This document shows, in pieces, positions 198 through 27,879 of a stretch of DNA of 64,000 nucleotides (positions are counted from its first letter, which is position 1; every line of letters begins with the position of its first letter). The translations under genes and the position numbers were made by a program. The stretch is from Tubulanus polymorphus (lineage: Eukaryota > Animalia > Nemertea): the NCBI RefSeq assembly GCF_964204645.1, contig NC_134036.1:10085859-10149858 (forward strand), given 5' to 3'. The notes beneath the pieces were generated by a model that did not search any database, had not been told where the DNA came from, and saw only the letters and a program-made list of their open reading frames with translations.

Positions 198-484
198 TTA
201 TTTGAATACATTTAGGATAAAGGATGAGCCGTTTTGAAATAATTGTTGATTTAAAGAGGGTCGTTGCGCTTTAATAAACAGGGCCTCCCTAATTTTACAG
301 TCGAGATCAGATGAACCTTTGTCTAGAATTTTGAATTTGTTGTTACTGAATTCCTGATCATAAGTGTGACAAATTGCGAGATGTTGTCCAATCGCAGAAG
401 TCTTTGATCTGTGTTCCTTAATCCTGATGGCCAAATGTCGTTTAGTTTTCCCAATATAGGAAGTGTTTATATCACATAAACAAT
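198..484 (-). pseudogene. PLE GIY-YIG endonuclease C-terminal fragment
   Basis: CLCD..SYIGKTKRHLAIRIKEH...SAIGQH...REALFIK...PSLN motifs. The first codons of the tracked ORF come from the Maverick TIR. Confidence 0.9.
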
Positions 485-896
485 AGTAGTTAGGAAATGT
501 CACTTCAGGACCTCAATGAGGAGGGGGGAGGGGGAGGAGTGAGGAGGGTGGAGGGGGAGGAGTTTCTTAAGATTTTTTTCTTAAGATTTTTTCCTCAAGA
601 TATTTTTCTTAAGATTTTTTTTTCCTCAAGATATTTTTCTTAAGATATTTTCCTTAAGATTTTTTTTCTTTTTTTCCTTTACGAATTTTCTTTTTGGCGG
701 CAAAATTCAAATCATTGACTATGTAAATTCCAAATCAATTTATTGATGTGATTAATTCCCTAGATGGCGCCACTATTACGAGATCCTATGCGTGTGTGTG
801 TGTGAGGAGGGGGAGGAGTAAATCCTAGATGGCGCTTTCTTTTCCAGCATTACCAATTTCGAGTGATACAAAGAAACCACAAAAAAAACAAATGTA
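485..896 (+). repeat. Left terminal inverted repeat of Maverick A
   Basis: Near-identical reverse complement of 16534-16991. Contains a G-rich tract, AAGATTTTTTTCTT-type tandem units and two CTAGATGGCG motifs. Confidence 0.95.
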
Positions 897-998
897 TAAC
901 AAATTAATGTCAACAATTAAAAAACATTTATTAACAATAAACGCGCAATAAATAGAATAGATAAATAAATAATCATATACACTGCGTTATTTCCTATA

Positions 999-3900
999 TC
1001 AATATCCGTACGGAAGCGTGTTATACCGATCTGCGGGGTCGAAAGCTCGTTTAGTATAAACCGCGCGATATATTTTTCGTTCGTCTCTATTGTAAATAGA
1101 ACAGTCCTTGATCTTTCTATTAATTTTGTCAGGGTTTAATATGTAAAGATGGTCGTACTTTTCTTCGACAATTATATCTACCATGGAACCAAAGTTTACA
1201 ATTTGTTTGTTTCGAAAATTCAAATTGATCCCTTTAACTTTACATTCCGTTGAAAATGTATTATCTCTAGGACTGAATACCCGATATGCATAATTTTTGG
1301 GTCCAGCCGAAACAAATTCTGAAATAAACGACCCCTCCCCGTATTTATCGACCAATTCATCGGTCATATCACCCAAAAAATTCCCGGTCGGCGGATCCCA
1401 TTCACCAGGTTTCACGCTATAAATAATGGAGTCGGTATCCGTGTATAGGGTTCGTTCCCCTAATTTCTCCATATAACTATAGAGAATAAGCCGCGCATGA
1501 GCCGTTGTGAAAGCTGCTAAAGCGACGCTGGTTTTGTTTGTCGATTCGACAAATTCTGCGCGTTTTTTGTAATGCACTCTTAGCACCTCGTCATTACACA
1601 ACAACAAATCGCTTATCTCTAAAGTTTCATCCAAAAGCATTCTATATAATTCCCCGGGGTCCAAAATATATTTAGCCGTCGTCTTATTTTCGTTTTGACC
1701 GAGTTTACCCCACATCGAATTTAAGCATAATTTCGTGACTGTTCGCATCCCCTTGGCTTTCTTAATCTTATCTTCTTCGAGTTGGATACCCTCTCTTTCT
1801 AAATAATCGGAAATGAATTTATCCTTCTCGTCGCGCGACATATCTTTACACGGCCAACCACTGGCTTCGGTTTTAACTTTGAGGAATTTTCCTATATAAT
1901 CCTCGAATAAACCCGTTTCATTAGTTTCCCAATTCCAAATTTCATATATATCTAATATCTTATAACCAAGTGTCACTGCTTTTTGTACCTCTAAAGTTAC
2001 CCAGGTACCCGTTATCGAACGCTCATTTGCCGAATGTTGACACTTTTCGCGCTGATTGCTTTCATTAGCGCACGTTCGACACAATGGAAAAGTCAATTTC
2101 CCACCCGATCTATACGGGAGCACGGGTAGATATAAACCCCGAGGCGGTAAAACCTTACACTTAATCAACCCGTAATAATTATCGATATGGCGGAAATTTT
2201 CAGTCACGATAGTCGGATGACCGATTGGATAACTGCAACGACTGTTGACGTACGGGTATAACGAGCATATGTCGATGTATTTGATTTTTTCTTCACCCTC
2301 GGCTTTGCGATAAATTTTTATCGCGTTCGTACGACCTCCAAAAAATGCGTCACGTGGTTGCAATGGATCGAGAATATCAGATTTTTTGACAAAATCTGCA
2401 AACGCGCGGTTTTCTTTAACCAAGTCACGATATTCGTGTTCCCAAAATTCCACCAAATTGTACCCCATAGCCCTAATTTTAGATGTTTTTTCTAATGTGG
2501 CCTGATATAATTCACCGAATTTACGATCGGGCCGTACAGGAGATATCAAATCCGGATTTTTGAAACACTTAGGGCATCCGTGATATAAACAACCGTGAAA
2601 TTCGTACACGGTATTGGATTCGGCGTGATAACCGTCTACTTTAAAGCGGTCAATCGATACTTCGCCGCCGTTCAACGCGTGTTGGACTCGTATGTCATTC
2701 GTTGTGGATACCCATTTCAACCAGTTAATTGCCATCTAGGAAAATTTTGCATTAGGTTTATAACCCCCCGGAGGGATTAGCCCTATTGTTGTCGGTTTCA
2801 AAAAGTTTGTTCGTAACGCCACATTGCACGCCGATGCTATAGTGATGCTGTTACGAAATGGATCAACAGCCGAAAGAGCAAAGAATTGATGTTGAAAATT
2901 TACGACGGATTGCATTAGAATATCCACATCCGAACGACAGTATTCGACCAACTCGCGTTGCATGTCAAAAATGAAATTTTCCGACTGACGATCGCTATGC
3001 CACTTTATTAAATCAGACCTTTCGCTCGAACTTAGACCGTCGGGATTGTAATATTCTATATCGGGAATAGGTCCGACGTAATCAATATTCTCGCGAGTGC
3101 AAAATTTATACGGAAAATAGCCCTTTTTCAACTCAGGAATACCTAGTGTTTCGGGTAATTTAGCGAGTTTCATCGGTAGAAAATTTAAAGTATCTAAAAA
3201 CTTTATATCCAAATGCTTGACGGTCATAGTCATTATTTTCCCACCGTTTGGTATAATATCCGGTAATATACCTTGTGAAACCAAATATTGCAGAATGAAA
3301 TAACCGTCGAAAGATTGAAAATTATGCGCGAAAACAGTGGCACCCCTATTCTCTTCCGTAAACAACCACTCGCAGAGTTCAGAGGCCGTTTTAAACACGT
3401 GTTCGTGTTTACCGCAATAATCGCAAACCGAGTCGGGGGTCCGTTTCGACCATTTACACATCTGACATACTCTATGTGCTATACCCAGTACTACAACGTG
3501 GTTCGATTCCACAGTCGTTGTTTCAAAATCGAATGCGATGAACTTTCTATATTTTAACTCATCGCCCGCATTTTCAGCGTCCAAATAAGGGTTGATTAGT
3601 GTATGAGGGTTACCCTGTTCCTCAGATACCACATGATCCCGACTTTTAGCGACCCCGATGTAACAAAGATGACCGCTAAGCTTTCGCTCTTTACAAGAAC
3701 TGCAATATTTTTGCCCGCAATCGTGAGATTTGGGGTCAAGTTTTTTTCTAGATACAATAGAACCGCATTGTAAACATCTAGCCTTTGAATCGCATAAGCT
3801 TGACCCATCTGGTCTTGGTCTGCAGTGTCTGGCTAAACACGCTTCCGATTTGAAATAGATATTGCATTTTATACACAAATAACTACCCCTTTGTTGTCCG

Positions 3901-6097
3901 CAATTACCTAAACAAAGTCTGCATTTATCTGTACAACTGTGTCGTTCTGTATTCGTATACCCTTTTTTACAAGAATAGCAAAAATATGTACGACACGTAA
4001 ATGCAGACATCGATGTAATAACGTCAAAATGTCCAGCCGTATATAAAAGTTCAATCTTTTTACCCCCAGCTCCTTTATTTTTTAGCACGGCGTTGTTTTT
4101 CTCGTAAATGATATGATACGCATTATCATCTCCAGTTGCGACTAATACGTAGTAATCGGATAATTGTTGCGCAAATACATCCAATTCGCGCAATCCACAC
4201 TTGCCTAGAGGTACACCGGCATTCGTGTGTAAGGCAATTGCCGCATTCTTCTGCAAAGGCCGGTCGCATCTACGTATGACATCATATCGGGGATCATTGT
4301 CCGCACGCGCTTTTGCAACCACTATTGACCTAGCGAGACACAAATCATCGTCATTATCAATTGAGACAACGCATTTTTTGTTCTGTCTAAACTGATTGAA
4401 GTTTACCTCGACGCGTTTACGACGTACACCACCTAGCGGCATTCGAATGAATGTACAATGGAAAATTAATCCATCCAAAGACAAATCCTCATTCGACTGT
4501 AGAACACGTATTAGCCTATCGAGTATATATTCGACCGTTAGTTCGTCCAACGATACGAATGGAAATTCAATGTTTCCATTGAGATCCGTGTGTTCGATAG
4601 ATATACGAATCATGTCACTCGAACGAGCGTCCAGCATTTCACTAATTGCCGCTAAAACGTCGGTTAGGTAATTTCGGACGATTGTCTGTGTATCCTGCGC
4701 GTCGAGTGTCTTGTTATTCTGGTCATCACGCGGAATTACGGTAACCTTGTACAACTCAGTTTTCATGTTGAATTTTTTGCTGTGTTGTACGCCGTTCTGT
4801 AAAATAATGGAAACATTCTTTTTAATCATTTTTGTTCGTCATTATGTTAAACGAATTTTGGTGTATTCGATTACTTACCCTGACCAGTTTAATATTGCCC
4901 CGTATTATCTCGTCGGGGTTTTCACAGTGAGGGCGCTTCGAACACGGCACTTCTTCCTCATCATCATCAATATCGTCAATAGGACGCTTCGATGTTGAGG
5001 GTCGTGGAGCGAATACCTCGCCGTGACGTTTTAACTCGGCGATCGAATGGAACGAATCCGAACATCGCGAGCATGTAAACTCCCGTACGGCTGGTGGTGG
5101 TGGTGGTGGAGGCTGTGGTAAGGCCGACGTCTTTTTAGGTTTACACGTTCTCATGTGCCTTACCAAGTTATCCTTACGAGATAGCGTTTTGCCGCATATG
5201 TCGCAAGAATGCTAGAAAATAGAAAAAAATACCCGGATTATATTAAAGATGAATAACAGTTTTTTTTAGCAATTCATGATTTCGATTACTTACAGAGTTA
5301 GACGTCCAGGGGTGAATGGGGTGACAATCAGGATGTGGCGGTGGGTTCACACGCGGAGGGTTTACGCGCGGTAGAGGGTTTACACGCGGTGGTTCAACGG
5401 ATCCTTTACACGTTTTGACGTGTCGGCGCATGTTGTCTACGCGTCCAAACACCTTGCCACATTTGCTGCACTCGGGTCCCTTCAATAGACAAATATATAG
5501 AATATAAATAACGGGTCTTTTTGTTTGTTTATTTGTTTTTCTTTCTTTAGTAACTCATAATTTCACTACTTACCGGTCTAGCTTCTGATGTGCCTGGTTG
5601 CGAGTGTAGTGATACGTGTTTGGCAACGTAGCCCTTACACGTTTTAGCATGCCGGGTCAAGTGATCTTTACGTGTAAACGACTTGCCGCATGTATCGCAT
5701 TGCCAACCATCGGTAGTTCCAAAGTGGGAACTCAGATGATGTGTCAGTGTTTGCTGGTCAGCAAAGTTAAGACCACATATTATGCAGTCCCATATTTGCT
5801 GAAAAAATAAATAAATAAATAAATAAACCGGGTATTTAAGAATACATTAAAATAATTAATTAATGAAATGAGCGATTGTAAGCTACTTACCGGATTGGCC
5901 GAAGCTACAGGCATCTGTTGTTGAACCGGTTGGGGTGTCATACATATAAACGTGTGCTGCGTTAAATCGCGCGCACACGCAAATGCTTTGCAACAGCTCA
6001 AGCACTTGAACCCCTTCTTACCAACGTGAAGTTGTTGGTGTTGTTCCAAACCCAGTTCATTGACAAAGGTCAACGGGCAGTATTGGCATGAATACAT
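999..6097 (-). CDS. polB: Protein-primed DNA polymerase B with spliced multi-zinc-finger N-terminus (exons 6097-5891, 5798-5574, 5479-5294, 5211-4879, 4796-999); one in-frame TAG at 2736-2738
   Basis: Exonuclease motifs (FDFET, HNFQSFDG, YCRSDV) and polymerase motifs (DICSLYP, KLCLNSMWGK, YTDTDS). Vsr-like insert (VDGY..YEFHGCLYHGC) and OTU-like Cys/His pair (DDLCLARS...HFDVI). Four GTAAGT...AG phase-0 introns join the ZnF exons in frame. Confidence 0.85.
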
Positions 6098-6768: not shown

Positions 6769-7418
6769 ATGGCAGAGTATAATGGCCCGAGATACTTATC
6801 CCACCCATTCACGATGATAGTCGCAGGACCGACGGGTTCCGGTAAAAGTGTGTTTGTCAAAAAGTTATAACGGAGAATCTTGTCGAAAAAAATCCCGATA
6901 AGATATATTGGTGTTACGCGGAGGCACAACCCGAAATGTTCAATGAATTGGAAAAGTTTGGAGTGCAGTTTGTAGAGGGTTTTTCCGGAGAACTCTACGA
7001 CAAAATAGATGGCAGTAAACGTACATTAATTATAGTCGACGATCTGATGAATGAAGTAGGGGGTAATAACGCGTTAGCTTCTTTGTATACACGAGGATCC
7101 CATCATCGCAACATCAGCGTTATTACGATTGTACAAAATATTTTCCCGAAAGGCAAAGAGTTTAGAACGATTAGTTTAAACTCGCATTATATTGTCGTTT
7201 TTAAAAATGCGCGAGATAGAAATCAAGTTCGCGTTCTCGCTCAACAAGCCGGTTTGAAAAACGAAATTGAAGCGGCCTTTAGAGACGCTACCATGGAACC
7301 CCACGGTTATCTTTTACTGGATTTTAAACCAAAAACTGTTGATAGATGGCGTTTGAGAACTAGAATTTTTCCTAGCGATAAATACCATATAATATACAAA
7401 ACAAAGAAAATTCATTAA
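6769..7418 (+). pseudogene. A32/FtsK-like packaging ATPase, frameshifted near 6868
   Basis: ATG 6769 gives HPFTMIVAGPTGSGKS (Walker A) and then a stop. Walker B (IIVDDLM) and RGSHHRNIS continue in another frame (ORF 6936-7418), consistent with a 1-nt deletion. Confidence 0.9.
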
Positions 7419-7456: not shown

Positions 7457-7840
7457 ATGGCGCCGCGTAAAAACAACTCGTTACAAAGAGTGAAAAAATA
7501 TATACATCATTTACACGTGTTGGGTAAATGTAATAAGAAACAACGTCGAGCGTTGATAGAATCGGCTCCGTCAGACTTAATCAAGTACGTATGCGAGATA
7601 TCCAAAAACAGTTTAGCCGGGAATATAAAACATAGCGACAAAGATAAACGCGTGTTGAAACAACATAAGCGTTACATACGCATGTTGGCCAACAATTCGA
7701 TAGCCATTAAACATAAACGAGGAATAATTTCGCAAAAAGGTGGATTTCTGCCATTCATTTTACTACCACTTTTGAAACCTATACTGACGTCTGTTTTAAC
7801 GAACGCCGCAAACCGAATAGTAGATAAGGCAACAGCATGA
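7457..7840 (+). CDS. Basic Maverick virion/core protein with GG|F protease-type site
   Basis: Lys/Arg-rich; QKGGFLPFILLPLL resembles adenain cleavage sites followed by an amphipathic peptide. Confidence 0.7.
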   Translation: MAPRKNNSLQRVKKYIHHLHVLGKCNKKQRRALIESAPSDLIKYVCEISKNSLAGNIKHSDKDKRVLKQHKRYIRMLANNSIAIKHKRGIISQKGGFLPFILLPLLKPILTSVLTNAANRIVDKATA

Positions 7841-8517
7841 AGAACGTTGAAAAGTTAATCATTTTACCCGATTCCATGTTACCCTCGATACAAGCTTTTA
7901 TCGCGAGTCAGGAACGTCGACAAGAAAAAGAAACACCCGCTACCTACAACCCTCTAACGGATAACAAAATACCCGACGATCTCAAATACTTAAAGTATAA
8001 TCAGTTATTGCAGCAAGAAATACATAAATCGTCTACAGAAAAGGACATTAACCAAACGACACAAGATATTAAAGAAATCTCGGGCAAATATACTACGCAG
8101 AAAATTATTGATCGGTAACCGTTAAGATTTAGGAAAAAATGTAAATCCCTATTAGCATTTTTTGAAGATAATCCAGGAATTTTGAAATGGAATGATAAAG
8201 GCGAACTGATTTACAAGGACAATCTAATTCGTGGAAGCAACATTGACGATATTTTACACATGTCGTTAGTACAAACTAAAATGGATCAAGAATATATCGG
8301 CCTAGATAAATATATATCTGCATTTAACGAGTTGAACGTACCATTGAGTCTTATTTCGAATAAAACGTTAAAGAGAAGTATCAAAGGTGCACTTACCGTA
8401 GATTTAGATACGTCGTTGTCTCCAAAGAGGAAGAAACCAAAGTATGATCAGAGCGGATCCGGACTGCGTGGAGTGCGTGATGGCAATGTGAATTTCACAA
8501 ACTGGTTATCCTTTTAA
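7837..8517 (+). pseudogene. Conserved Maverick hypothetical protein (WNxxGE...GSNI motif), split by a stop at 8116-8118
   Basis: ORFs 7837-8118 and 8182-8517 share a frame; KWNDKGELIYKDNLIRGSNIDDIL is typical of Polinton accessory proteins. Confidence 0.7.
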
Positions 8518-8847
8518 CGACTAGAAAAACCTAATCGCGACTGTCAAAAAGCTTTGACCAATGACCTGGCTTCATTTGTGGCGGATTGATATGATATATG
8601 CGGGCTTCATTATTCGTGTTTGGCATGTCAACGGTCAGTGGGTTTTGCAATGATATCATTAGTGGAATGGATATAGCAGTTTCATTTTGTGACGCGATAT
8701 TAAGAGTTAATTGTGGAGTGCTGTGACCGAGTTGACGTAACACTAATAGTTAATTGGATGTACGGGTTTCATTTTTGGGTCAAGATAAATCGATATTAAT
8801 TGTCGATTGGATATGTGGGTCTCATTTGCGATCGAGTTGGTACATTA

Positions 8848-9372
8848 ATGATGATTGAAGTTGTAAACGTTGCGTCTACGGGTAATCTGAATTGCCGTCT
8901 AAATCTAGCCGATATTGCAGGAAAATTGTGTAATGTCGTCTATGACCCCCGAAAGTTTAGTGGATTAATATGGAAACACAGAAGTATACAGGGTAATTGT
9001 CTATTGTTCGTAAATGGTAAAATGGTCGTGACCGGATGTAAAAGCGAATTTAACAGTCGGCGTAGTACAAGACAATTCGCTCGTTTGTTGCAAAAGATGG
9101 GTTATATTGTGAGCTTGACTAATTTCAAAATACAAACTATGACTGGAGTTGTAAAAACTGATCGACGTGTGGACTTAATAGAACTTTCCAAAACAGTTCC
9201 CGGTGACTACAATCCCGAAATATTTCCCGGTTTTGTTTACAAGTGCGAAAACGGGATAAAATGTATAGTACATAACGGCGGTACTTTAATATTGTCGGGT
9301 GCCAGAAAACTCTACGATCTACGGGAAGCCTATGAAGAAGTTCTATTCTATACCATTCTTTGTTCCAAATAA
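8848..9372 (+). CDS. TATA-box-binding protein (TBP)-like
   Basis: Two-repeat TBP core: VVNVASTGNL...YDPRKFSGLIW...LLFVNGKMVVTGCKS and FKIQTMTG...YNPEIFPGFVY...GTLILSGAR. Confidence 0.9.
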   Translation: MMIEVVNVASTGNLNCRLNLADIAGKLCNVVYDPRKFSGLIWKHRSIQGNCLLFVNGKMVVTGCKSEFNSRRSTRQFARLLQKMGYIVSLTNFKIQTMTGVVKTDRRVDLIELSKTVPGDYNPEIFPGFVYKCENGIKCIVHNGGTLILSGARKLYDLREAYEEVLFYTILCSK

Positions 9373-9544
9373 AAAAGTCATTAAAAGCATATTGTTTTTT
9401 AAGTGTAAATAAAATTATGAGAAAAGATGAATTGGCGAAAGTTGTTTTGTTGTTGTTTAAAGCAGGAGGAGCCGAATTTCGAGTGTCGTTTCAATAGAGT
9501 TAATTGCGTATTAAGTACGTGTTGTGGTAGTACAACTGTAATTG

Positions 9545-10627
9545 ATGAAAGCCGAACAGAAAAGGTTCCTGGCGAATCAATATTATGGCGTCGACAAAGA
9601 AGGAAGTTTTTCAAACGCAAATACATTACTACGGATTTGTAAAAAAGAAAACAAAAATATCTCTTTACGTGAGATACGAGACTGGTTAACCGAACAAGAA
9701 GTTCACACTTTACACGCCAAAGTGCGAAAGAGATTTCCGAGAAACAAAACTATAGCCTATCGAGTGAACGAGCAATTTCAGGTCGACTCGTGCGACGTTT
9801 CGAATATTTCGAAACACAACGACGGTTACAAATTTCTATTGACGGCTATCGATGTATTGTCTAGATACGCGTTCGCTATACCGTTAAAGAATAAATTTAA
9901 TTCTACCGTTGTGGATGGTTTTAAAAAGATTTTCAAGATTAGGAAACCTAGCGTTATTCAATCGGATTCAGGCACAGAATTTGTCGGTTCAAAAACGCAG
10001 GCGTATCTGAAAAACGAGGGCGTACGTTTTTTCCAAAGTAAAAACGGAGTGAAATGCGCTTTAATCGTAAGATGGATACGTACTTTAAAATCGAAAATGT
10101 ATAAGATATTTTCGCATAGAAATTCATACAGATATATCGATTTGCTTAAAGATATAGTAGCGTCATACAATAAATCGTTTCATCGTAGTATAAAAATGGC
10201 TCCAAACGATGTCAACGAGTTAAACGCGCACAAAGTTTTCAAGAATTTATACGGTACAATCCGTAGTAAAAAACGCGTGAATTTTAAGTTTCGCGTTGGC
10301 GACACTGTTCGAATAAGCGAACTCAATGGTCAATTCCAAAAAGGCTATTTACCCGGTTGGAGTACTGAGTTGTTTGTCGTTACGAAAAGAATTATGCGTG
10401 AACCACCTGTATACAAGATTAAAGATTTACAAGACGTAACAATAGATGGCGTGTTTTATGGTTACGAGTTGATAAAATTCAATAAAAAGGATGAAACGTA
10501 TAAGATCGAGTCGATAATTAAAACTCGAGGTAAAGGCGCTCGAAAACAATACTTGGTAAAGTGGTATAACTATCCCGATAAATTCAATTCTTGGGTGAAC
10601 GCTCGAGATATCAAGAAATTACCATGA
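9545..10627 (+). CDS. int: Retroviral-like (rve) integrase with C-terminal chromodomain; catalytic Glu apparently lost
   Basis: QVD, IDVLSRYA and QSDSGTEF motifs; KCALIVRW where KxxxxERF is expected; YLVKWYNYPDKFNSWV chromodomain. Confidence 0.93.
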   Translation: MKAEQKRFLANQYYGVDKEGSFSNANTLLRICKKENKNISLREIRDWLTEQEVHTLHAKVRKRFPRNKTIAYRVNEQFQVDSCDVSNISKHNDGYKFLLTAIDVLSRYAFAIPLKNKFNSTVVDGFKKIFKIRKPSVIQSDSGTEFVGSKTQAYLKNEGVRFFQSKNGVKCALIVRWIRTLKSKMYKIFSHRNSYRYIDLLKDIVASYNKSFHRSIKMAPNDVNELNAHKVFKNLYGTIRSKKRVNFKFRVGDTVRISELNGQFQKGYLPGWSTELFVVTKRIMREPPVYKIKDLQDVTIDGVFYGYELIKFNKKDETYKIESIIKTRGKGARKQYLVKWYNYPDKFNSWVNARDIKKLP

Positions 10628-11450
10628 GTCAGGATTTTACGTGTATCTCAAAAGCGATGCTAGCACTGATATTTATCCCGATAATACGCGACATAGTTTT
10701 AAGGTCCGATTACGAACACCGATTTCACTTCAAGGCAAATGGTTTTGCGCTTTACATCAAATAAACTTTATGGCTGATTTCAATAACGTGAACAATGGAA
10801 GATTTCAATGTACGTCGTCTGAGCACGGAACTCATTATCTCGATATACCCACGGGTCGCTATTTGACAATTAACCAATTAATTGTCGCTATACAGGCAGA
10901 GTTAAACAAATGGTACGACGATAAGATAGTTCTTGCATTCGATGAACTAAGTCATAAAGTTAGTATCCGATTTAATGACGACTGTTCAATAACTTTTACG
11001 AACGATATTGCGTGGATCTTGGGTTTTAAAGAAAATATACCGATTAACGAAGATATATCAGATCGTCGTCAAGGTTCTAAAATACACGGTCCTGTACTGT
11101 CAGATTCATCCGATAGTAAAACAGTTTACAAATACATCGAGGTCACTGCAACCCGCAGTTCGGATATAAACGTCGATTATCATAATTTGATGGTATATAC
11201 AGATGTTATCGAACCACAGCTGGTCGGACATCAAAGCGCAAATCTCTTACGTCTGATCGATTTGAATCCGAGAAATTTTGGTAAAATTGTTGGTCGAGAA
11301 TTTACCAAGTTACAATATTTTCCGCTACAAAGACGGAATTTTCAAACTATAGAAGTCTTTATTAGGACCGAATACGGAAGAATCCCCGTTTTCAGAAAGG
11401 GCAAAGTTAACCTGGTTCTGCATTTCAAAAAGAAGAATTTATTGCTATGA
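10624..11450 (+). CDS. Minor capsid (penton) protein; 1-nt deletion in a T-run just after the ATG
   Basis: MSQDF(Y)VYLKSDASTDIYPDNT..F.VRL and VYTDVIEPQLVG...LLR...LVLHFK motifs. ATG 10624 is out of frame with ORF 10641 by one base. Confidence 0.85.
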
Positions 11451-11860
11451 GGGCTCTCTGCGAAATCGATCGGGATGCTTGTTGTAAATATTACATGAAC
11501 CAATGCGGTTCGGGTATTGACGTGTACACGGCATCCCCCGTACAAGGCGGTGCTGGATTTGCATCAGTCTTGGGCGGGTTGGCTCGTCCAGCTATTCCAC
11601 TACTAAAAAATATGGCCAAGCAAGCGGTTCCTCATTTACTGAGAACTGGTTTACACGTAGCCAGCGATGTGGTAGGCGGTAAGAATATCGCGACAGCCAT
11701 CAAAGATCGTGGCATCGAAACAATGGGTCGCATTATCAAACGAAGCTTAAAAAGACCATCTACCTCAAACCCAAAATCAATAAAAGGTCGTAAACGAAGT
11801 AGACGTATAACAACCGGAAAACGCGTTCGAAAAACCAAAGCATTCGCTGAAGCGTACTAA
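11447..11860 (+). CDS. Basic core protein (pVII-like)
   Basis: YYMNQCGSG and QGGAGF protease-type sites; Arg/Lys-rich C-terminus; located just upstream of the MCP. Confidence 0.75.
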   Translation: MRALCEIDRDACCKYYMNQCGSGIDVYTASPVQGGAGFASVLGGLARPAIPLLKNMAKQAVPHLLRTGLHVASDVVGGKNIATAIKDRGIETMGRIIKRSLKRPSTSNPKSIKGRKRSRRITTGKRVRKTKAFAEAY

Positions 11861-11862: not shown

Positions 11863-13173
11863 ATGTCGTTATTGGTACATAAGGATTCGCCACTGTGCGT
11901 CAAGTCCGAACTCGATTTGTTTACAGTTCCCGGAACACAGATAAATTTCAAAGAATGCCGATACGTTAGCTACGAACCCACTACGTCGATTAACGACATG
12001 GGGCCGATTGTATTCAGAGTGCCAAAAACTGAACAATATTTAGATTTAAACGTGACGTATCTAAAACTACAGTTCAAAATAGTTAACGCCGATGGAACTA
12101 ATGTAGGGCCCGAAAAGTCAGTCTCAATGATCAATGGCGCCTATAGTCTATTTAGCGATGTACAAATTACGCTTAACGACCGAGTGGTTACCCACGACGG
12201 GGGGTTATACCCGTTCAAATGTGAGCTGGAAAATATGGTTAATTACAACTCGGAAACTAAAAACAACAGCTGGCTACAATGCGATCTTTATGTCGAAGAC
12301 GAAGCTGGAAAAAAGTCAAATATCGATCCTACTTTACCAAACGCAAATTCCGGTTTGGTCAGAAGGAATAACTACACTAAAGGCAGTAAACTGGTTTGCG
12401 CTTATTCTCGGTTGTATAGCGATGTACTGAGAATGAATAAGATTTTCATCAACAATACAGATTTACAAATAAAACTAACTCGATCAAAGGAAAGTTTTGC
12501 TCTAGTTTCCCCTGTCGAAAACCCAGATTTCCGTATAAAGATTGAAAGCGCTCAACTATACATTCGTAAACTAGAACTGGATAGTTCTGTTTTAGTAGCG
12601 CATGCTAAAGCACTGGAAAAGAATGCAGCAAAATATTATTTTTCGAGAACTGAATTATTATCGTTAAATATTCCAAGAGGTCATAGAACAATTATCAAGG
12701 ATTCCGTTTTCGTCGGTGAGATACCAAAGGCTATTGTTTTAGCTTTAGTGGACGACGACGCGTTGAGCGGCAATTACAAGAAGAATCCGTTCGATTTCAA
12801 GGATTATTCATTGAATTATATAGGGGTTACCGTTGATAATGTCCATGCACAAAACTCGCCGTTAATTATAGACTCCCAGGGCGACGGCTGCGAGGTGTAT
12901 CACGGTTTATATTTAGCCCGGGGCTTATTGTATAAAAACGAAGGAATTGGGATAAAACGTGAGGATTTCAAAAAAGGCAATTTTATTTGTGGGTTTAACA
13001 TGTCGCCCGAGTACGGGGATCAGCCGCACCTGTCACTAATTAAAAAGGGCTCGCTTAAAATCGAAATGCGATTTGATGAAGCTTTACCGCATAACGTGAA
13101 TTTGATTGTTTACGCCGTTTTCGACGAATTACTACAAGTAACCAAAGAACGTCATATAGAAATCGATTATTAG
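11863..13173 (+). CDS. Double jelly-roll major capsid protein
   Basis: KSELDLFTVPGTQ, YLDLN.TYLKL and GNYKKNPFDF motifs of Maverick MCPs; 436 aa, intact. Confidence 0.93.
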   Translation: MSLLVHKDSPLCVKSELDLFTVPGTQINFKECRYVSYEPTTSINDMGPIVFRVPKTEQYLDLNVTYLKLQFKIVNADGTNVGPEKSVSMINGAYSLFSDVQITLNDRVVTHDGGLYPFKCELENMVNYNSETKNNSWLQCDLYVEDEAGKKSNIDPTLPNANSGLVRRNNYTKGSKLVCAYSRLYSDVLRMNKIFINNTDLQIKLTRSKESFALVSPVENPDFRIKIESAQLYIRKLELDSSVLVAHAKALEKNAAKYYFSRTELLSLNIPRGHRTIIKDSVFVGEIPKAIVLALVDDDALSGNYKKNPFDFKDYSLNYIGVTVDNVHAQNSPLIIDSQGDGCEVYHGLYLARGLLYKNEGIGIKREDFKKGNFICGFNMSPEYGDQPHLSLIKKGSLKIEMRFDEALPHNVNLIVYAVFDELLQVTKERHIEIDY

Positions 13174-13178: not shown

Positions 13179-13643
13179 ATGTTATACACCAACAAAATTT
13201 TAGAATTTATGAAAAAAGACGAATGTCTAAATACGTCTTTCTTTGGTGTTTTTCCATGCGATCGACTACCGGATATAACGAGCTATCCGGCTGGTTTTAT
13301 AGTAAACACTGATAATCACGACGAACCTGGCGAACATTGGCTAACTATATATATAAACGAATACGGCATCGGTTATTTTTTTGATTCCTTCGGGCAACAA
13401 CCCGGAACTTATGATAAAATGTTAGAAAAATACTTGGATGAAAATTGTATAGAATGGAAATATAATAATAAGATGTATCAAAACGTATTATCCGATGTAT
13501 GCGGTTATTACGCTATATTTGTACTATTACACCTATGTCACGGTAACGATGTACGCGATATTACTAAACTATTGTCAAACAAAACTAATGATAATGATTA
13601 TTTTGTAAAAAAATTTATCGTGAAATATTTTAAGCTTCTATAA
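13179..13643 (+). CDS. Adenain-like cysteine protease (capsid maturation)
   Basis: NTDNHDEPGEHW, FFDSFG and YQ...SDVCGYY catalytic His/Asp/Gln/Cys motifs. Confidence 0.95.
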   Translation: MLYTNKILEFMKKDECLNTSFFGVFPCDRLPDITSYPAGFIVNTDNHDEPGEHWLTIYINEYGIGYFFDSFGQQPGTYDKMLEKYLDENCIEWKYNNKMYQNVLSDVCGYYAIFVLLHLCHGNDVRDITKLLSNKTNDNDYFVKKFIVKYFKLL

Positions 13644-14212: not shown

Positions 14213-14363
14213 TTTCGTAATGGATTTTAGAGATCTTCTGACGAGTATTTTATACGCAGTAGCTACTTTGCGTGGCAGATGTTTTGCAATGGATGAATCA
14301 AGGGTCTTTAATTACCTAATTGTCTATTCGGTTTGGTTTCTAAACCATTCCGTCACATATCGA

Positions 14364-14552
14364 GGGTACTGACTAGATATTTTAGACGGCAGATGCTAAC
14401 AAACTGGTCAATGATTTTTGTTTCTCAATTACTTAATTGCGTAATTTTCATCCCGCATATTCCGGCACATATGGGGGTACTGACCAGCTATTTTAGATGG
14501 CAGATGCTAACAACGGGTCAATGGTATTTGTTTCTCGATTACTTAATTACGT
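14364..14552. repeat. Two-copy ~110 bp tandem duplication
   Basis: GGGTACTGAC.AG.TATTTTAGA.GGCAGATGCTAACAA...GTTTCTC.ATTACTTAATT occurs at ~14364 and ~14475. Confidence 0.75.
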
Positions 14553-14723: not shown

Positions 14724-15530
14724 TTATACTTGGGTTATCATTATACCGTATTCAGGTGCTTTTCTAACCCCGCTTGTGTCTTTTGCGCAGTACGGGCACC
14801 TGTATTCCTGATTCGAGTGACTCGAATCGTACCAGCACGGTCTCATATTAGCCATTTCGGATATATCTTCTGTAAAATAAATGTCTTTCAATTTTTTCCA
14901 TTGTTCCAATGTTAGTTTTACGCCGCATCTAGTCGGATTTACATCGGACAGCTCATCGTGTAGATCGTATTTTCGGATATCTACGTAAATACGGTGATCG
15001 TGACTAGATCTATATATTTTGATAAAGTTTGAACGACCAACGGTCATCACGCCTACGTAATCGATATCTTCTTTAACGCGCGCAATTTCGTGTTCGATAT
15101 CGGCTTTACAATAATCTATATGTACCCACTCTTGGAGATCCAAAGCAATACCGTTTTTAGTGGGGTACAGTTGTTTTCTACGTTCACAGCATTCGAAAGA
15201 TCGTAAATCTATACGTTTTAACCCCTGCCACGTTTTCGCACTCGCGTACACAAGCGATCCTAGATAATGAGGCTCGGGGTCATTGTTCCAGGTATTCCGT
15301 TGAACTTTCGACGGAACAGCGTTGTCATTTACGATTGAACCTATAAAACAATAAAAAATATTCTATATAGGTATGCGTCTAAAAAATAATTACCGGTTTC
15401 GAATACGGAGAAGAAGTAGAAACTTACTAAAGTCGAGTTTGTGCGAAGGACGTTTTCTTTTTCTAGATTGAGTAGATGACTTTGGTGTACTACATATTTC
15501 TAAGGTAGTTTGTCCACTAGTCGAATCCAT
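14724..15530 (-). CDS. Tandem PC4-like ssDNA-binding/coactivator protein, 2 exons (15530-15428, 15340-14724)
   Basis: RIDLR..F...PTKNGIALDLQEW and VDIRKY...PTRCGVKLTLEQW repeats. An 87-nt GTAAGT...TAG phase-1 intron joins an ATG exon carrying an NLS-like RKRKRP. Confidence 0.8.
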
Positions 15531-15759
15531 CTGGGTGATACAGGTCGATGTTGACGGGTCAAAGTCTCTGAGCAGATTGATTAATTTATGGATTTACAAC
15601 GCGTTTTTATTGTCAGGAAATGACTTGCCCGAACACGATTTACGGTTTCACATGTTATTGCGAAATATTTTTCGCCCAAACTCGTTCATGATTTCGCAAT
15701 AGCCGTTAAAAGACGCCATCTTGGAATTATCTCCCACTTTCCCATCCTCCCCCTCCACA

Positions 15760-15760
<1 letters not shown>

Positions 15761-15828
<68 letters not shown>
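15761..15828. repeat. (CA)n microsatellite
   Basis: Uninterrupted CA dinucleotide run. Confidence 0.99.
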
Positions 15829-16506: not shown

Positions 16507-16533
16507 CGGTCAATAAATGTTTTTTATTTGTTT

Positions 16534-16991
16534 TACATTTGTTTGTTTTTTGTGGTTTCTTTGTATCACTCGAAATTGGTAATGCTGGAAAAGAAAGCGC
16601 CATCTAGGATTTACTCCTCCCCCTCCTCACACACACACACGCATAGGATCTCGTAATAGTGGCGCCATCTAGGGAATTAATCACATCAATAAATTGATTT
16701 GGAATTTACATAGTCAATGATTTGAATTTTTCCGCCAAAAAGAAAATTTGTAAAGGAAAAAAAGAAAAAAAAAATCTTAAGGAAAATATCTTAAGAAAAA
16801 TATCTTGAGGAAAATAAAAATCTTAAGAAAAATATCTTGAGGAAAAAATCTTGAGAAAAAAATCTTAAGAAAAATATCTTAAGAAAAAAATCTTAAGAAA
16901 AGAATCTTAAGAAACTCCTCCCCCTCCCCCTCCTCACTCCTCCCCCTCCCCCCTCCTCATTGAGGTCCTGAAGTGACATTTCCTAACTACT
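16534..16991 (-). repeat. Right terminal inverted repeat of Maverick A
   Basis: Reverse complement of 485-896 with extra copies of the internal AAAAAATCTTAAG unit; ends in ACTACT. Confidence 0.95.
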
Positions 16992-18560
16992 GAGGTTCTG
17001 AGTTCTGTTTTGATTTCAAAAATCTATTAATACATTGATCGATGACATGAATAGGAAACGCATTAGATTTAAACAGATTTTTCAAGAAATTGATTTCTTC
17101 TGAAAAGATGGTCCAATCACTGCAAATATTGTAGGCACGAAAAAGCATGGTATTGATGAGTCCTATTTTCCATTTATACGGACACATGGCGTTGAAGTTC
17201 AACAGTAGGCCTGTGTTGGAAGCTTTCCTGTACACTCGAGATATAAAGTCACTACCGGTTTCTAACGGAATTTGTATTTCGGTATCGAGAAAAGGTAATA
17301 GATTAGGACCTAGTTCAAAAGTGAATTTAAGGTTAGAATGGAGGCGATTCAATTCTTCAAAAAATAGTCTATAACTGGATACATTTCGAAATATGCCGAA
17401 AATATCGTCCACGGATCTCAGGTATAATGTCGGTTTGTAATTAGTTTTGGAGAGGAGCAAGTTTTCAAAATGGGCAAGACAAAAGTTCGCTAAGGTTGGG
17501 CCTAAGGGGCTGCCCATGGTGACCCCATCAACTTGCTTAAAAATACGATCATTGTACATAAACAAACCCGAAGTTGCGATTTTAAGTAATTCTTTGAATG
17601 TAGCCTGATCATATGTAGGTTTAGAGTCGGAAGCATATATATAATCGGAAACTATATCAATGGTTTCTTTCAATGGAACATTAGTGAAAAGTGACTCTAC
17701 ATCAAAACTTATTAGAATATCAGAAGGTTTAAAAACGAATTGTTTCAGTTTTTTAAGGAACTCCCAAGTGCTATTTAACATGAATTTAGACGGTATATGT
17801 GGTTTAATGATTTTATCGAGATATTTGGCCAGGTTATATTCAGCAGTGTCGATCATTGATACAACGGGTCGAAATGGAAAGTTATCTTTATGCACTTTGC
17901 ACAAACCATATAATTTACCAGGTTGGCTACCGCTTGGGTAGATAGAATCAAATATTTCTGAACTTACATAGTGTTTCACATGTTTTCTCAGAAATCCGCA
18001 GATTTTGGTTTCATTAGATATGACAGGGTGATTCTTTCTCACATTTTTGATTTCAGTAAATTTACTTTTATCAAATACAATTTTATCTAATTTATCGAAA
18101 TATTCCTTAGAGTCCAAAATAACAATGCCGTTGCCTTTGTCAAATGAGCAGATCTTAATGTCCTTGTTTTTTCGAAGTTTTTCAATCGTACGGTAGAAAC
18201 GTCGGTTCCAGGTCGAGCCACATACTGATTTAGCGCTGTTGATAAATGAGATGGTCGCATGTCTAATACTTTCAAGGAAAGAGTTATTCACATTCGGTTC
18301 GCCGCCAGATATAGTCCTATTTTTGTGGTAAACAGTTTTTTCAATACGTGATTTAAGGTCGATTTCGTTGATATTTTTCGGAAGAATGTGATGCTTTAAG
18401 CCGTAACGTAGTATCTCAGTTTCTTCTAGGGATAGTTGATAATTTGATCTATTGATTAAGCAATCCGGTGCTGGGTGACGCTGATCTTTCCACAAGTTTA
18501 AAAGCTTGCGTTCATGACGTTGCTGTGTTTCCGAAGTTAGTTTCCTGCCTTTCTGGTTAA
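16992..18560 (-). pseudogene. Penelope-type reverse transcriptase, 5'-truncated
   Basis: DKGNGIV, LYGLCKVHK, RPVVS, SFDVESLFT, GVTMGSPLGP and LPFLD motifs; the YVDD motif reads SVDD. Confidence 0.93.
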
Positions 18561-18582: not shown

Positions 18583-18753
18583 TTTAGCACTTGTAATTTT
18601 GTAACTTATGTTGTATATAAACCTGTAGTTTAATCATTTGATTCACTTGTATTTCACCTGATGAGGGGATATGATCCCGAAAACGTTCGTGTTAATGAAC
18701 TGTATTTACTCATTAGAAAATGAGGTTTTTAATGTTATCGCTTCTATGGTTAT
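18583..18753 (+). repeat. Inverted pseudo-LTR of PLE-1
   Basis: 18583-18738 is the reverse complement of 1-156; it abuts element B pPolB sequence at ~18754. Confidence 0.9.
18655..18691 (+). ncRNA. Hammerhead ribozyme, second copy
   Basis: CACCTGATGAGGGGATATGATCCCGAAAACGTTCGTG, identical to the minus-strand copy at 48-84. Confidence 0.8.
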
Positions 18754-21297: not shown

Positions 21298-21326
21298 TCA
21301 AATTTTAATAAAAATATGTTATTAAA

Positions 21327-21680
21327 ATGGAGAGTAAACAAGCACACAGTGAGAACAACAAATTATTTCTAGATAGAATTAAAGATACTACAAATGTAAA
21401 ATCTGTAGATTATAAATTCAAAAAGTTAACAGAATTAATAATCCATAAGAAATATCTAATTACAAATATTGTTACAGTTACTAATAACTATGGAGATAAA
21501 TTAGTTATACACTTAGAATATGAAGGATTAAAAGGAAATACATATAAATTCAGAACATATTTACCTGATAGATTTCATAGATTATCAAGTGAAGATTTAG
21601 AAGAATTATGTTCTGGAGATTTCTATTTCGTATACAAAGGTAAAAATGAAAAAGGGCACCATGAAATAGATTTCGAATGA
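21327..21680 (+). CDS. Small conserved protein (117 aa), homolog of 52919-53260
   Basis: Near-identical to the element C copy. Confidence 0.8.
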   Translation: MESKQAHSENNKLFLDRIKDTTNVKSVDYKFKKLTELIIHKKYLITNIVTVTNNYGDKLVIHLEYEGLKGNTYKFRTYLPDRFHRLSSEDLEELCSGDFYFVYKGKNEKGHHEIDFE

Positions 21681-21697
21681 GAAAATATGTAAAATAA

Positions 21698-22453
21698 ATG
21701 GCGGAATTAAAAGAATACAGAATATTTGTTGATTCTAGAAGGCTTACAAATTATAAATCACATAATTTACTAGTACAATTAGATAGAGAATTCAAGAATT
21801 GTGTAGATTTAAAATTAGTTAATATAAGTTTATGTAATTCTTTTTACAATGTATCGGATAAAACTTTTGAACACAGAGGGTTTATGATTTATATGAGAAA
21901 TAAAGATAAATGGTTTCATATATTTTTAAAACCAGGATTATATAATTTAAAATCATTAGCGCAGGAAATTAATAGAACCGCTCGGTTGAAAATCGGGGGC
22001 ACTTCTGTATTTGAAATCAAATTTAATAAAATTGATAGTACTAATAAAATTAGAATAAAGATATCTAATGAACAACATAAATTTATGGTAAACAAACCAC
22101 TAGCTAAAATGTTAGGAATTAAACCGCTTACAGTTACTGGAAACGCAGAAGGCAGCTCAAATATAATACCTTTTACACACTTTTATATTTATTGCAATTT
22201 AATCGATCCTACAAAAACATTCGAAGCAACTAAAGAAACAATTTGTAGTTCTAGTATACTAAATATTTTACCGCTAAAAAATGTTAAACAATTTGGAACT
22301 CAAATAAATTATAATTTAACAGAATGTGATTTTAAACCTTGCATTCCTAAATTTAATAATTTTAAATTAGAAATAAGAAATCATAATGGATACTTAATTG
22401 ATTTAAATAATTTCCCTGTAATTTATTAATTAGTTATAAGATGTAGAGAGTAA
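21698..22453 (+). CDS. Probable minor capsid (penton) protein, premature stop 8 codons from the end
   Basis: IFVDSR...LDREFKN...L.NISLCNSFYN and IYCNLI...LIDLNNFP penton-like motifs; TAA at 22427 where element C has GAA. Confidence 0.75.
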
Positions 22454-22455
22454 TC

Positions 22456-22918
22456 TTTTTCAACTAATATATGAACAAGTTTTAAAATAATAAAGGTTAT
22501 TTATTATTACTGAGGTTTCAATATAAATTTAAAAAAGAAATATAATTTAAAACATTTTCAAATGATATATATTAAATACGTATTAGATACGTATTAGATA
22601 CGTATTAGATATGTATTAGATACCTTAATACTTAAAACCCTTTTTTAAAAAAATTATTATTCATATAATTTTCAACCAATTTATTTTTATTTTTTTCAAC
22701 TAATATATGAATAAGTTTTAAAATGATAAAGGTTATTTATTATTACTGAGGTTTCAATATAAATTTAAAAAAGAAATATAATTTAAAACATTTTCAAATA
22801 ATACGTATTAGATACGTATTAGATACGTATTAGATACGTATTAGATATGTATTAAATACCTTAATACTTAAAACCCCCTTTTTTATTTACTATTATTTTA
22901 TACAATTTTCAACTAATA
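22456..22918. repeat. ~236-bp tandem repeat (2 copies) with internal ATACGTATTAG 11-mers; partial inverted third copy at 29368-29465
   Basis: TTTTTCAACTAATATATGAA...CTGAGGTTTCAA...(ATACGTATTAG)n...CTTAAAACCC occurs twice; the reverse complement of its distal part lies at 29368-29465. Confidence 0.9.
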
Positions 22919-22930
22919 TTATTATTTGAG

Positions 22931-23821: not shown

Positions 23822-23853
23822 TTATTATATATATTTTTATTAAAGTTAAAATT

Positions 23854-25100: not shown

Positions 25101-25112
25101 TTTTTATCATGG

Positions 25113-26521: not shown

Positions 26522-26537
26522 TTACATAATAAAAAAA

Positions 26538-27863: not shown

Positions 27864-27879
27864 TTATATAATTAAAAAA

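What the first reader, a model, noticed from the sequence alone, without database searches (positions are those of the whole stretch)
8848..9372. Maverick-encoded TBP-like protein
Seen: an intact, intronless, divergent two-repeat TBP core inside the structural gene cluster. Known: TBP homologs are typical of giant viruses and are not a core Polinton gene. Inference: with PC4 and the ZnF leader, it may redirect host Pol II to element promoters or act as a dominant-negative. The second repeat lacks the usual IFxSGK Phe (it reads VHNGGT), hinting at altered DNA specificity.
Basis: partly seen in the sequence, partly recalled or inferred. Interest (0 to 1): 0.7.

Follow-up and report, generated by a model that had tools for sequence, protein, structure and literature searches.

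The report
Maverick element's own minimal TBP gene
An integrated Maverick (Polinton) virus-like element in this window carries an intact 174-residue TATA-binding protein that belongs to a conserved branch of the TBP family found next to Maverick integrase genes, and it likely guides the host's RNA polymerase II to TATA-like boxes in front of the element's packaging, integrase and capsid genes.

Summary
Window 8848-9372 (+) is an intact 174-aa ORF made of two TBP repeats (Pfam PF00352, E 4.6e-33). The AlphaFold2 model (pLDDT 97.8) overlays the human TBP core at TM 0.97.

It lies inside a 16.5-kb Maverick bounded by ~400-nt terminal inverted repeats (about 484-899 and 16533-16992). Its neighbours are the packaging ATPase and the integrase/capsid genes.

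It is not a recent host retrocopy:
- It falls in a well-supported clade of ~170-aa core-only "mini-TBPs" (32 rows against 38 canonical rows, UFBoot 100 / SH-aLRT 95).
- Three metagenome contigs carry the same gene order. A distant 60%-GC lineage and a TBP-integrase fusion protein also put the TBP next to the integrase.
- dN/dS between two relatives is 0.165.

The clade keeps both stirrups and most intercalating Phe. It changes DNA-contact positions of the second repeat: N159T in 28 of 30 rows, V161T/S in 30 of 30. F207H occurs in the query and its closest kin.

A TTAAAAG-type box sits 30-95 nt before the ATPase, ORF127, Cys-ORF/integrase and capsid genes in the window and its relatives, but not before TBP. 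The TBP-less Maverick family in the same window has similar boxes, so a private TBP-box pairing remains inference.

This copy is decaying, with three broken genes. Interest is moderate to high.

The parts
484..899 (.). Left terminal inverted repeat of Maverick element 1. It contains 14-nt tandem units (TTTCTTAAGATTTT).
999..4829 (-). [quoted passage not shown] It reads as two ORFs in one frame, separated by an in-frame stop at 2736-2738.
   Evidence: DNA_pol_B_2 E 4e-27 and 1e-21
4822..6097 (-). C2H2 zinc-finger ORFs (4822-5154, 5780-6097) and zinc-finger-like repeats between them.
   Evidence: homologues in L001 and L003
6714..6722 (+). TATTAAAAG box, about 53 nt before the ATPase ATG.
6769..7418 (+). 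Packaging ATPase. The Walker-A part is in one frame and the rest in another (frameshift near 6865).
   Evidence: orthologue in L003 matches Adeno_IVa2 at 27.9 bits
7413..7421 (+). CATTAAAAG box, 42 nt before ORF127. It overlaps the ATPase stop codon.
7457..7840 (+). ORF127, a conserved gene of unknown function.
   Evidence: 61-63% identical to L001/L003/L004
7837..8517 (+). Homologue of the 255-257-aa ORF of the relatives, interrupted by an in-frame stop at 8119-8121.
8660..8828 (+). Three degenerate direct repeats before TBP. Two carry ATTGG (CCAAT-box) pentamers. Repeat number varies among copies.
   Evidence: (loose end at 8687)
8848..9372 (+). Mini-TBP, 174 aa, two TBP repeats, intact.
9368..9373 (+). 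AATAAA overlapping the TBP stop codon. The same arrangement occurs in L001 and L003.
9379..9387 (+). CATTAAAAG box, 46 nt before the Cys-rich ORF and 164 nt before the integrase ATG.
9427..9642 (+). Small Cys-rich ORF overlapping the integrase start. It is conserved in L001, L003 and L004.
9545..10627 (+). rve integrase with a C-terminal chromodomain.
10770..11860 (+). ORF226 and ORF137, conserved genes with no family match. They may be minor capsid or core proteins; this is an inference from position only.
11778..11786 (+). CAATAAAAG box, 83 nt before the capsid gene and inside ORF137.
11863..13173 (+). Double jelly-roll major capsid protein.
   Evidence: structure TM 0.96 to an F54H12.2-like cluster; PF21738 clusters
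13179..13643 (+). Adenain/Ulp1-like cysteine protease. The Pfam matches are below their cut-offs.
14724..15047 (-). PC4-domain ORF.
   Evidence: E 1.2e-7, 31.6 bits against cut-off 25
16533..16992 (.). Right terminal inverted repeat.

Best explanation
The ORF is a Maverick-borne minimal TATA-binding protein that is likely the element's own promoter-recognition factor. It is predicted to bind TATA-like boxes of the type (C/T)ATTAAAAG that lie 30-95 nt before the packaging ATPase, ORF127, Cys-ORF/integrase and capsid genes, and to recruit host TFIIB and RNA polymerase II through its conserved C-terminal stirrup.

Shown directly:
- It is an intact TBP saddle.
- It belongs to a separate clade of core-only TBPs.
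- It keeps one place in the gene order across diverged Mavericks, under purifying selection.
- DNA-contact positions of the second repeat are changed.
- A box is shared at orthologous places.

Inferred:
- This protein reads that box.
- It works with host Pol II.
- The TBP gene is an early gene driven by host factors. It has ATTGG/CCAAT clusters and its own AATAAA, but no such box.
For: (1) Family and fold. Pfam TBP E 4.6e-33 with two repeats. AF2 pLDDT 97.8. Foldseek gives 1cdw_A at TM 0.97, rmsd 1.0 A, 35% identity.

(2) A separate lineage.
- The HMMER scan of 1.84 billion representatives gave 3622 hits at E <= 1e-3.
- Of the best 150, 136 covered at least 140 query positions.
- In the quick tree of 137 rows, the query sits in a set of 30 short rows with SH-aLRT 99.
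- In the careful tree of 70 rows, 32 mini rows separate from 38 canonical rows at UFBoot 100 / SH-aLRT 95.

(3) Linkage to Mavericks.
- L001, L003 and L004 have the order PolB(-), ZnF(-), ATPase, ORF127, ORF255, TBP, Cys-ORF, integrase, ORF226, ORF137, MCP, protease. TBP is 43-46% identical to the window's, and integrase and MCP are 60-62% identical.
- L006/L007 (60% GC) show TBP, then integrase, then MCP-like.
- P0075 is a TBP plus rve read-through protein.
- L007 and P0075 both nest inside the clade.

(4) Selection. TBP dN/dS for L001 against L003 is 0.165 (dN 0.075, dS 0.453). Other element genes range from 0.056 to 0.255.

(5) Kept surfaces, counted in 30 clade rows:
- N69 in 30
- F99 in 25
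- F116 in 30
- F190 in 26
- P187 in 30
- E188 in 28
- L/I189 in 28
- Y94 in 27
- P96 in 27

(6) Changed DNA-contact positions:
- N159T in 28 of 30
- V161T/S in 30 of 30
- L205 to T, S or I
- F207: H in 4, T in 2 and Y in 2 of 30
KCIVH(N/T)GGT is shared by the window, L001 and L003.

(7) The box.
- TTAAAAG is the top 7-mer in the 110-nt upstream windows, present in 10 of 26 windows from the window, L001 and L003.
- In the window plus L001 it is in 7 of 18 windows. Any 7-mer reached that count in 12 of 1000 dinucleotide shuffles.
- No box lies before TBP in any of the 3 lineages.
- In L007, ATAAAAG occurs twice on the gene strand and never on the other strand. One of these lies 128 nt before the MCP-like gene.

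(8) ATTGG/CCAAT pentamers occur 3, 4 and 4 times in the 300 nt before TBP in the window, L001 and L003. That is 4-7 times the density of each whole sequence.
Against: - The box is not significant in the window alone. Three upstream windows hold it, and 973 of 1000 shuffles reach 3.
- CATTAAAAG with up to 1 mismatch is not over-represented in the window: 56 found against 50.5 expected.
- The two TBP-less family-B Mavericks in the same window also have TTAAAAG/TTATAAG 36-44 nt before some genes. The box may therefore simply be a host-type TATA box.
- Two of the boxes overlap coding sequence or a stop codon, which could explain part of their conservation.
- L001 and L003 are close kin, so they do not count as independent.
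- Read depth over TBP is 14-32, against 39-70 for the neighbouring genes at 85% likeness or more. One contig joins 8552 to 9544 and skips the gene. So not every copy keeps a similar TBP.
- This copy has three broken genes, so the ORF here may no longer be in use.
- There are no expression, DNA-binding or partner-binding data.
Confidence: 0.55

Rival explanations
1. Host-directed competitor. The mini-TBP would occupy host TATA boxes, or sequester TFIIA/TFIIB or regulators, and so damp or re-programme host transcription instead of activating element genes.
For: - There is no N-terminal domain.
- Several positions conserved in canonical TBP are changed clade-wide, among them E93 to I/V, I106 to H, P109 to I and S135 in place of A. 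Host regulators may therefore no longer control it.
- The stirrup residues needed to hold TFIIB are kept.
Against: - DNA-contact residues are conserved or changed coherently across the clade. They are not relaxed, as would be expected for a pure protein-sequestering decoy.
- The box sits at orthologous places before element genes.
Confidence: 0.15
2. Architectural DNA bender. The saddle would bend AT-rich DNA at the termini or elsewhere to assist protein-primed replication, integration or packaging, with no role in transcription.
For: - The gene lies between the packaging ATPase and the integrase, and abuts the integrase in three lineages.
- The TIRs hold 7-10 AT-rich 14-nt tandem units.
Against: - The TFIIB-facing stirrup motif (P187, E188, L/I189, F190) is nearly invariant. 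A pure bender would not need it.
- The gene has its own AATAAA signal.
Confidence: 0.1
3. Factor for another polymerase. The mini-TBP would pair with Brf-type factors (Pol III) or SL1-type factors (Pol I), for example to make small element RNAs.
For: The same C-terminal stirrup binds Brf1/Brf2 in solved complexes that rank among the fold matches (4roc, 4rod, 6cnb).
Against: - No tRNA-like or other Pol III-type gene was sought or seen in the element.
- The boxes precede protein-coding genes.
Confidence: 0.05
4. Neutral passenger. The ORF would be a captured host TBP copy with no function for the element, open only by chance.
For: - This copy of the element is decaying, with three broken genes.
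- At least one copy lacks the gene.
Against: - The clade is separate from canonical TBPs.
- Synteny holds across lineages whose synonymous sites are saturated.
- dN/dS is 0.165.
- Clade-specific residues are invariant.
Confidence: 0.03

Closest known systems
Cellular eukaryotic TBP core (Pfam PF00352; human 1cdw, yeast 1ytb)
   Same: Two-repeat saddle with TM 0.97 and rmsd 1.0 A, and 35-38% identity. It keeps N69, three of the four intercalating Phe, both stirrup motifs and the Gly turns.
   Different: There is no N-terminal domain. N159 is Thr, V161 is Thr, F207 is His and T215 is Ser in the second repeat, and M104 is Trp. It forms a clade apart from canonical TBPs. It is encoded by a mobile virus-like element.
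'TBP' gene label in MELD viruses with adintovirus-like PolB (Starrett et al. 2021, PMC8502044, and preprint 10.1101/697771). I saw only the figure-legend passages.
   Same: A TBP homologue drawn in small linear dsDNA virus/Polinton-like genomes.
   Different: The papers give only the label ('similar to TATA binding proteins', 'homologs of host proteins'), in a section on non-animal eukaryotes. The passages I saw contain no clade, residue, synteny or promoter analysis. I could not compare sequences.
Giant-virus (Nucleocytoviricota) TBP-like proteins, e.g. Heterosigma akashiwo virus, Terrestrivirus, asfarvirus B263R homologue
   Same: Virus-encoded TBP fold.
   Different: They are far more remote: best TM 0.80, identity 18% or less. 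By recall, those viruses bring their own RNA polymerase. A Maverick encodes none, so this TBP would have to work with host polymerases.
TBP-related factors (TRF2/TBPL1 type)
   Same: Diverged TBP paralogues with changed DNA-contact residues.
   Different: Two animal rows (P0007 from a rotifer, P0040 from a moth) have Trp at 116 and His at 190. By recall that is the TRF2 signature. They group with the canonical side and not with the mini-TBP clade. The mini-TBPs keep F99, F116 and F190.

Membership tests
TBP family (PF00352) | Two tandem TBP repeats above the Pfam gathering score | tested here: met
   113.4 bits against cut-off 22.9, two stretches
TBP family (PF00352) | Saddle fold (ten-stranded sheet with four helices on top) | tested here: met
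   AF2 pLDDT 97.8; TM 0.97 to 1cdw_A
Canonical TATA-binding TBP | Four intercalating Phe (yeast F99, F116, F190, F207; roles recalled) | tested here: not met
   F37, F54 and F126 are kept. Position 207 is His142.
Canonical TATA-binding TBP | Pair of central minor-groove Asn (yeast N69, N159; roles recalled) | tested here: not met
   N7 is kept. Position 159 is Thr97, as in 28 of 30 clade rows. Canonical rows have Asn in 98%.
Canonical TATA-binding TBP | C-terminal stirrup E-P-E-L-F that contacts TFIIB (role recalled) | tested here: met
   The query reads N-P-E-I-F. In the clade, P187 is kept in 30, E188 in 28, L/I189 in 28 and F190 in 26 of 30 rows. Binding itself was not tested.
Canonical TATA-binding TBP | Binds TATAAA DNA and nucleates a pre-initiation complex | not testable with these tools
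   Needs EMSA or reporter assays.
Maverick/Polinton element (context of the gene) | Protein-primed PolB plus rve integrase between terminal inverted repeats | tested here: met
   The PolB carries an in-frame stop.
Maverick/Polinton element (context of the gene) | Morphogenesis module: DJR capsid protein, packaging ATPase, cysteine protease | tested here: met
   MCP by the Atlas. ATPase by homology to the L003 protein, which has an Adeno_IVa2 hit, and by a Walker A motif. The protease matches are only below their cut-offs.
Mini-TBP clade (defined in this report, not a published family) | Core-only length of about 170 aa, Trp at 104, Thr at 159, Thr/Ser at 161; one side of a supported branch | tested here: met
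Giant-virus TBP-like proteins | Closest sequence or structure relatives among NCLDV TBPs | tested here: not met
   Best BFVD match has TM 0.80 and 18% identity, against TM 0.97 and 35% for cellular TBP.

The most novel reading that the evidence does not exclude
Mavericks of this lineage run a two-step, virus-like transcription programme with a private general transcription factor. Host CCAAT-binding factors switch on the mini-TBP gene. The mini-TBP's re-tooled second repeat (Thr159, Thr/Ser161, His/Phe207) reads an ATTAAAAG-type box that differs from TATAAAAG only at the first base step. It then drives the packaging, integrase and capsid genes with host Pol II, free of the host's TBP regulators. 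TBP-less Mavericks in the same genome that carry the same box could be trans-activated by it.
Probability: 0.25. Interest if true: 0.8.

Novelty: new variant of a known kind. Interest (0 to 1): 0.6.

Why it matters
How Mavericks/Polintons express their genes from a chromosomal copy, and whether they still behave as viruses, is largely unknown.

A conserved, element-encoded general transcription factor would bear on both questions. The element has no RNA polymerase of its own, so it would have to use host Pol II. Such a factor would give these elements a minimal self-contained regulatory switch.

It would also supply a natural altered-specificity TBP for studying how the saddle reads DNA. Finally, it offers a simple marker gene for one Maverick lineage.

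In the papers I could search, this gene appears only as a figure label.

Tried and rejected
Searches and tools that gave nothing:
- No whole genome is held for the window. Copy counts and a comparison with the host's own TBP were therefore impossible.
- The word-indexed protein search found nothing. That was a sensitivity limit, because the full HMMER scan found 3622 hits.
- Three IMG/VR scans found no relative.
- The 30-row alignment was too diverse for locus search. A 3-row alignment worked.
- Sequencing runs: no RNA holder is listed. The run guessed to be RNA laid nothing. There is thus no evidence on expression either way.
- Earlier-findings look-ups by place and by sequence were blank.
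- The Atlas search with the TBP added nothing beyond the family name.
- No target-site duplication was evident at the TIR ends.

Motif tests that failed:
- The whole-window count of CATTAAAAG with up to 1 mismatch is not enriched: 56 against 50.5 expected.
- The window-alone 7-mer test is not significant.

Readings considered and rejected:
- A recent host retrocopy.
- Giant-virus origin.
- A TRF2-type paralogue.

Other points:
- p53-like half-sites before TBP occur in L001 and L003 but not in the window.
- I did not use complex prediction. No eukaryotic TFIIB/TFIIA sequence was at hand, and I claim no binding between two element proteins.

Full report
**What is there.** Window 8848-9372 (+) is an uninterrupted ATG-to-TAA ORF of 174 codons.
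- Pfam assigns it to TBP (PF00352) at E 4.6e-33 and 113.4 bits, against a cut-off of 22.9, with two matched stretches.
- phmmer against PDB sequences aligns residues 4-165 to the human TBP core 1cdw (E 7e-31) and to yeast TBP.
- An AlphaFold2 model built on a 30-row alignment has mean pLDDT 97.8. It superposes on 1cdw_A at TM 0.97, rmsd 1.0 A and 35% identity.
- The core starts at residue 3, so there is no N-terminal domain.
- tblastn finds no second TBP in the window.

**Context.** The gene lies inside a 16.5-kb Maverick/Polinton. Its inverted terminal repeats run from about 484-899 and 16533-16992. Gene by gene:
- On the minus strand: a protein-primed PolB (999-4829) and C2H2 zinc-finger ORFs.
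- On the plus strand, in order:
  - a packaging ATPase (6769-7418) with a Walker A motif; its L003 orthologue matches Adeno_IVa2
  - ORF127
  - a 255-aa-type ORF
  - the TBP
  - a small Cys-rich ORF
  - an rve-chromodomain integrase
  - two ORFs without family matches
  - a 436-aa double jelly-roll capsid protein
  - a protease-like ORF
- A PC4-domain ORF (14724-15047, minus strand) also lies within the TIRs.

This copy is decaying. PolB has an in-frame stop at 2736-2738. The ATPase is frameshifted near 6865. The 255-aa-type ORF has an in-frame stop at 8119-8121.

Two copies of a different Maverick family fill about 18583-33105 and 48862-63953. They are 79-98% identical to each other in protein over most ORFs, and they have no TBP.

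**Not a host retrocopy.** A full HMMER scan of 1.84 billion representative proteins gave 3622 hits at E <= 1e-3. Many of the best were core-only proteins of 169-176 aa, 35-47% identical to the query.

Of the 150 listed, I kept the 136 that cover at least 140 query positions and dropped 14.
- In a quick ML tree of those 136 plus the query, the query falls in a set of 30 short rows with SH-aLRT 99.
- In a careful tree of 70 rows, the two groups are split by a branch with UFBoot 100 / SH-aLRT 95. The rows were all 30 short ones, the TBPs of L003 and L007, and 38 of the 107 canonical rows, which I picked to include the divergent ones. The bootstrap had not fully settled, with a correlation of 0.957.
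- Named anchors on the canonical side include a fish TBP, a moth protein and a rotifer protein.
- Giant-virus TBPs are far more remote, with best TM 0.80 and identity of 18% or less.

**Linked to Mavericks and under selection.** One metagenome scan returned seven loci.
- L001, L003 and L004 have the same gene order as element 1. Identities to the window are listed below.
- L006/L007, at 60% GC, show TBP, then a 32%-identical integrase, then a capsid-like gene.
- P0075 is a TBP that reads through into an rve integrase.
- L007 and P0075 both nest inside the mini-TBP clade.

Protein identities of L001/L003/L004 to the window:

| Gene | Identity to window |
|---|---|
| ATPase | 69-72% |
| ORF127 | 61-63% |
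| TBP | 43-46% |
| Integrase | 60-61% |
| Capsid | 61-62% |
| Protease | 49-56% |

Between L001 and L003 the TBP has dN 0.075, dS 0.453 and dN/dS 0.165. That is within the range of the other element genes, 0.056-0.255. Against the window, synonymous sites are saturated.

**What is kept and what is changed.** Yeast numbering and residue roles are recalled. The mapping comes and the counts.

Kept in the clade (30 rows):
- N69 (30)
- V71 (26)
- Y94 (27)
- P96 (27)
- F99 (25)
- F116 (30)
- P187 (30)
- E188 (28)
- L/I189 (28)
- F190 (26)
- the Gly turns

Changed clade-wide:
- M104 to W (27 of 30)
- N159 to T (28)
- V161 to T or S (30)
- I106 to H (24)
- P109 to I (27)
- E93 to I or V
- L205 to T, S or I

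It is shared, as KCIVH(N/T)GGT, by the window, L001 and L003. It is therefore a conserved feature of this subgroup and not decay. The first repeat and both stirrups look canonical, while the DNA face of the second repeat is re-tooled.

**A candidate target.** I ranked all 7-mers without prior choice in the 110 nt before nine genes of the window and L001 and eight of L003.
- TTAAAAG comes first, in 10 of 26 upstream windows. It lies before the ATPase in 3 of 3 lineages, ORF127 in 3 of 3, the Cys-ORF in 2 of 3 and the capsid gene in 2 of 3. In each of the two misses, a one-base variant stands at the orthologous place: TTATAAG before the L003 Cys-ORF and ATAAAAG before the window's capsid gene.
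- It never lies before TBP.
- In the window plus L001 it is in 7 of 18 upstream windows. Any 7-mer reached that count in 12 of 1000 dinucleotide shuffles.
- In the window the boxes lie 53, 42, 46 and 83 nt before the four ATGs.
- In the GC-rich L007, ATAAAAG occurs twice on the gene strand and not on the other strand. One occurrence is 128 nt before the capsid-like gene.

The box, ATTAAAAG, differs from the adenovirus-type TATAAAAG at the first two bases. By recall, that is the step contacted by the second repeat's Phe pair.

**The TBP gene's own signals.**
- It is followed by an AATAAA that overlaps its stop codon, in the window and in L001 and L003.
- It is preceded by clusters of ATTGG/CCAAT pentamers: 3, 4 and 4 in 300 nt, which is 4-7 times the density of each whole sequence.

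**Evidence against, and limits.**
- In the window alone the box is not significant (973 of 1000 shuffles reach 3), and its overall count is as expected.
- The TBP-less family in the same window also has TTAAAAG/TTATAAG 36-44 nt before some genes. The box may be an ordinary host-type TATA box.
- Two boxes overlap coding sequence or a stop codon.
- L001 and L003 are close kin.
- Raw DNA reads of the same species label show a multi-copy, diverged family. Of 2710 reads laid, 429 were at least 99% alike, 1016 were 95-99%, 847 were 90-95% and 418 were below 90%.
- Depth over TBP is 14-32, against 39-70 over its neighbours. One contig joins 8552 to 9544 without the gene, and 23 reads skip about 150 nt of the repeats before TBP. 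TBP is therefore more diverged or absent in some copies.
- No RNA data, DNA-binding data or partner data exist here.

**Literature.** Searches for Polinton, Maverick or adintovirus together with TBP or TATA found only figure-legend labels in Starrett et al. 2021 and its preprint. I saw those passages only.
- One paper on a green alga mentions TATA-binding proteins in mirusvirus-like elements, which is a different case (passage).
- Three further papers had no relevant mention in term searches.
- Earlier AI notes of this scan report similar Maverick TBPs in at least three other genomes. I used them as leads only.

**Verdict.** This is a real, selected, Maverick-lineage minimal TBP. It most likely serves as the element's own promoter-recognition factor working with host Pol II (confidence 0.55). 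Rival readings are host interference, an architectural role in replication or packaging, or use of another polymerase.

Noticed in passing
window 18583-33105 and 48862-63953; also 1-156: Two copies of a second Maverick family, 79-98% identical in protein over most ORFs. In the intact copy, a 1342-aa ORF carries an Endonuclease VII domain ahead of the polymerase part. Both copies have an A32-type ATPase and an rve-chromo integrase, and neither has a TBP. Bases 1-156 are a 99% inverted copy of 18583-18738, so a third copy probably starts left of the window.
   Followed up: partly
window 9427-9642; L001 3142-3501; L003 4456-4809: A conserved small Cys-rich ORF (motif W.CC...R(I/V)NC..S.CC) starts about 46 nt after a box and overlaps the integrase start. 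It may be a separate small protein or an upstream part of the integrase gene.
   Followed up: partly
window 8660-8828: Three degenerate 29-50-nt direct repeats lie before TBP. Reads from the same species show copies that jump from 8687 to about 8835, so the repeat number is polymorphic.
   Followed up: partly
L001 about 2435-2455; L003 about 3813-3822: p53-type half-sites (RRRCWWGYYY with at most 1 mismatch) lie 50-110 nt before the TBP gene in the metagenome relatives. L001 has two adjacent half-sites. The window has none.
   Followed up: partly
P0075 (283 aa): This protein is a mini-TBP that continues into the N-terminal part of an rve integrase. It may be a natural fusion or a read-through gene call.
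   Followed up: partly
window 16987-17856 (-): A reverse-transcriptase fragment (RVT_1, E 8e-8) abuts the right TIR. The Maverick therefore sits in or beside a retroelement.
   Followed up: no
window 14347-14552 and 15756-15828: A 110-nt tandem duplication (1.9 copies) and a (CA)37 microsatellite lie in the gene-poor right part of element 1.
   Followed up: no
window 27880-28314 and 55083-55517: The family-B 144-aa ORF has weak membrane-protein matches (DUF2207_C; SLATT_fungal E 0.003). SLATT is among the gene labels in the preprint of Starrett et al. (10.1101/697771, legend passage).
   Followed up: no
window 8517, L001 2300, L003 3637 (minus strand): A (C/T)(G/A)TTAAAAG match on the opposite strand overlaps the stop codon of the 255-aa-type ORF in all three lineages. 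This is probably a coding coincidence (…F-stop).
   Followed up: no
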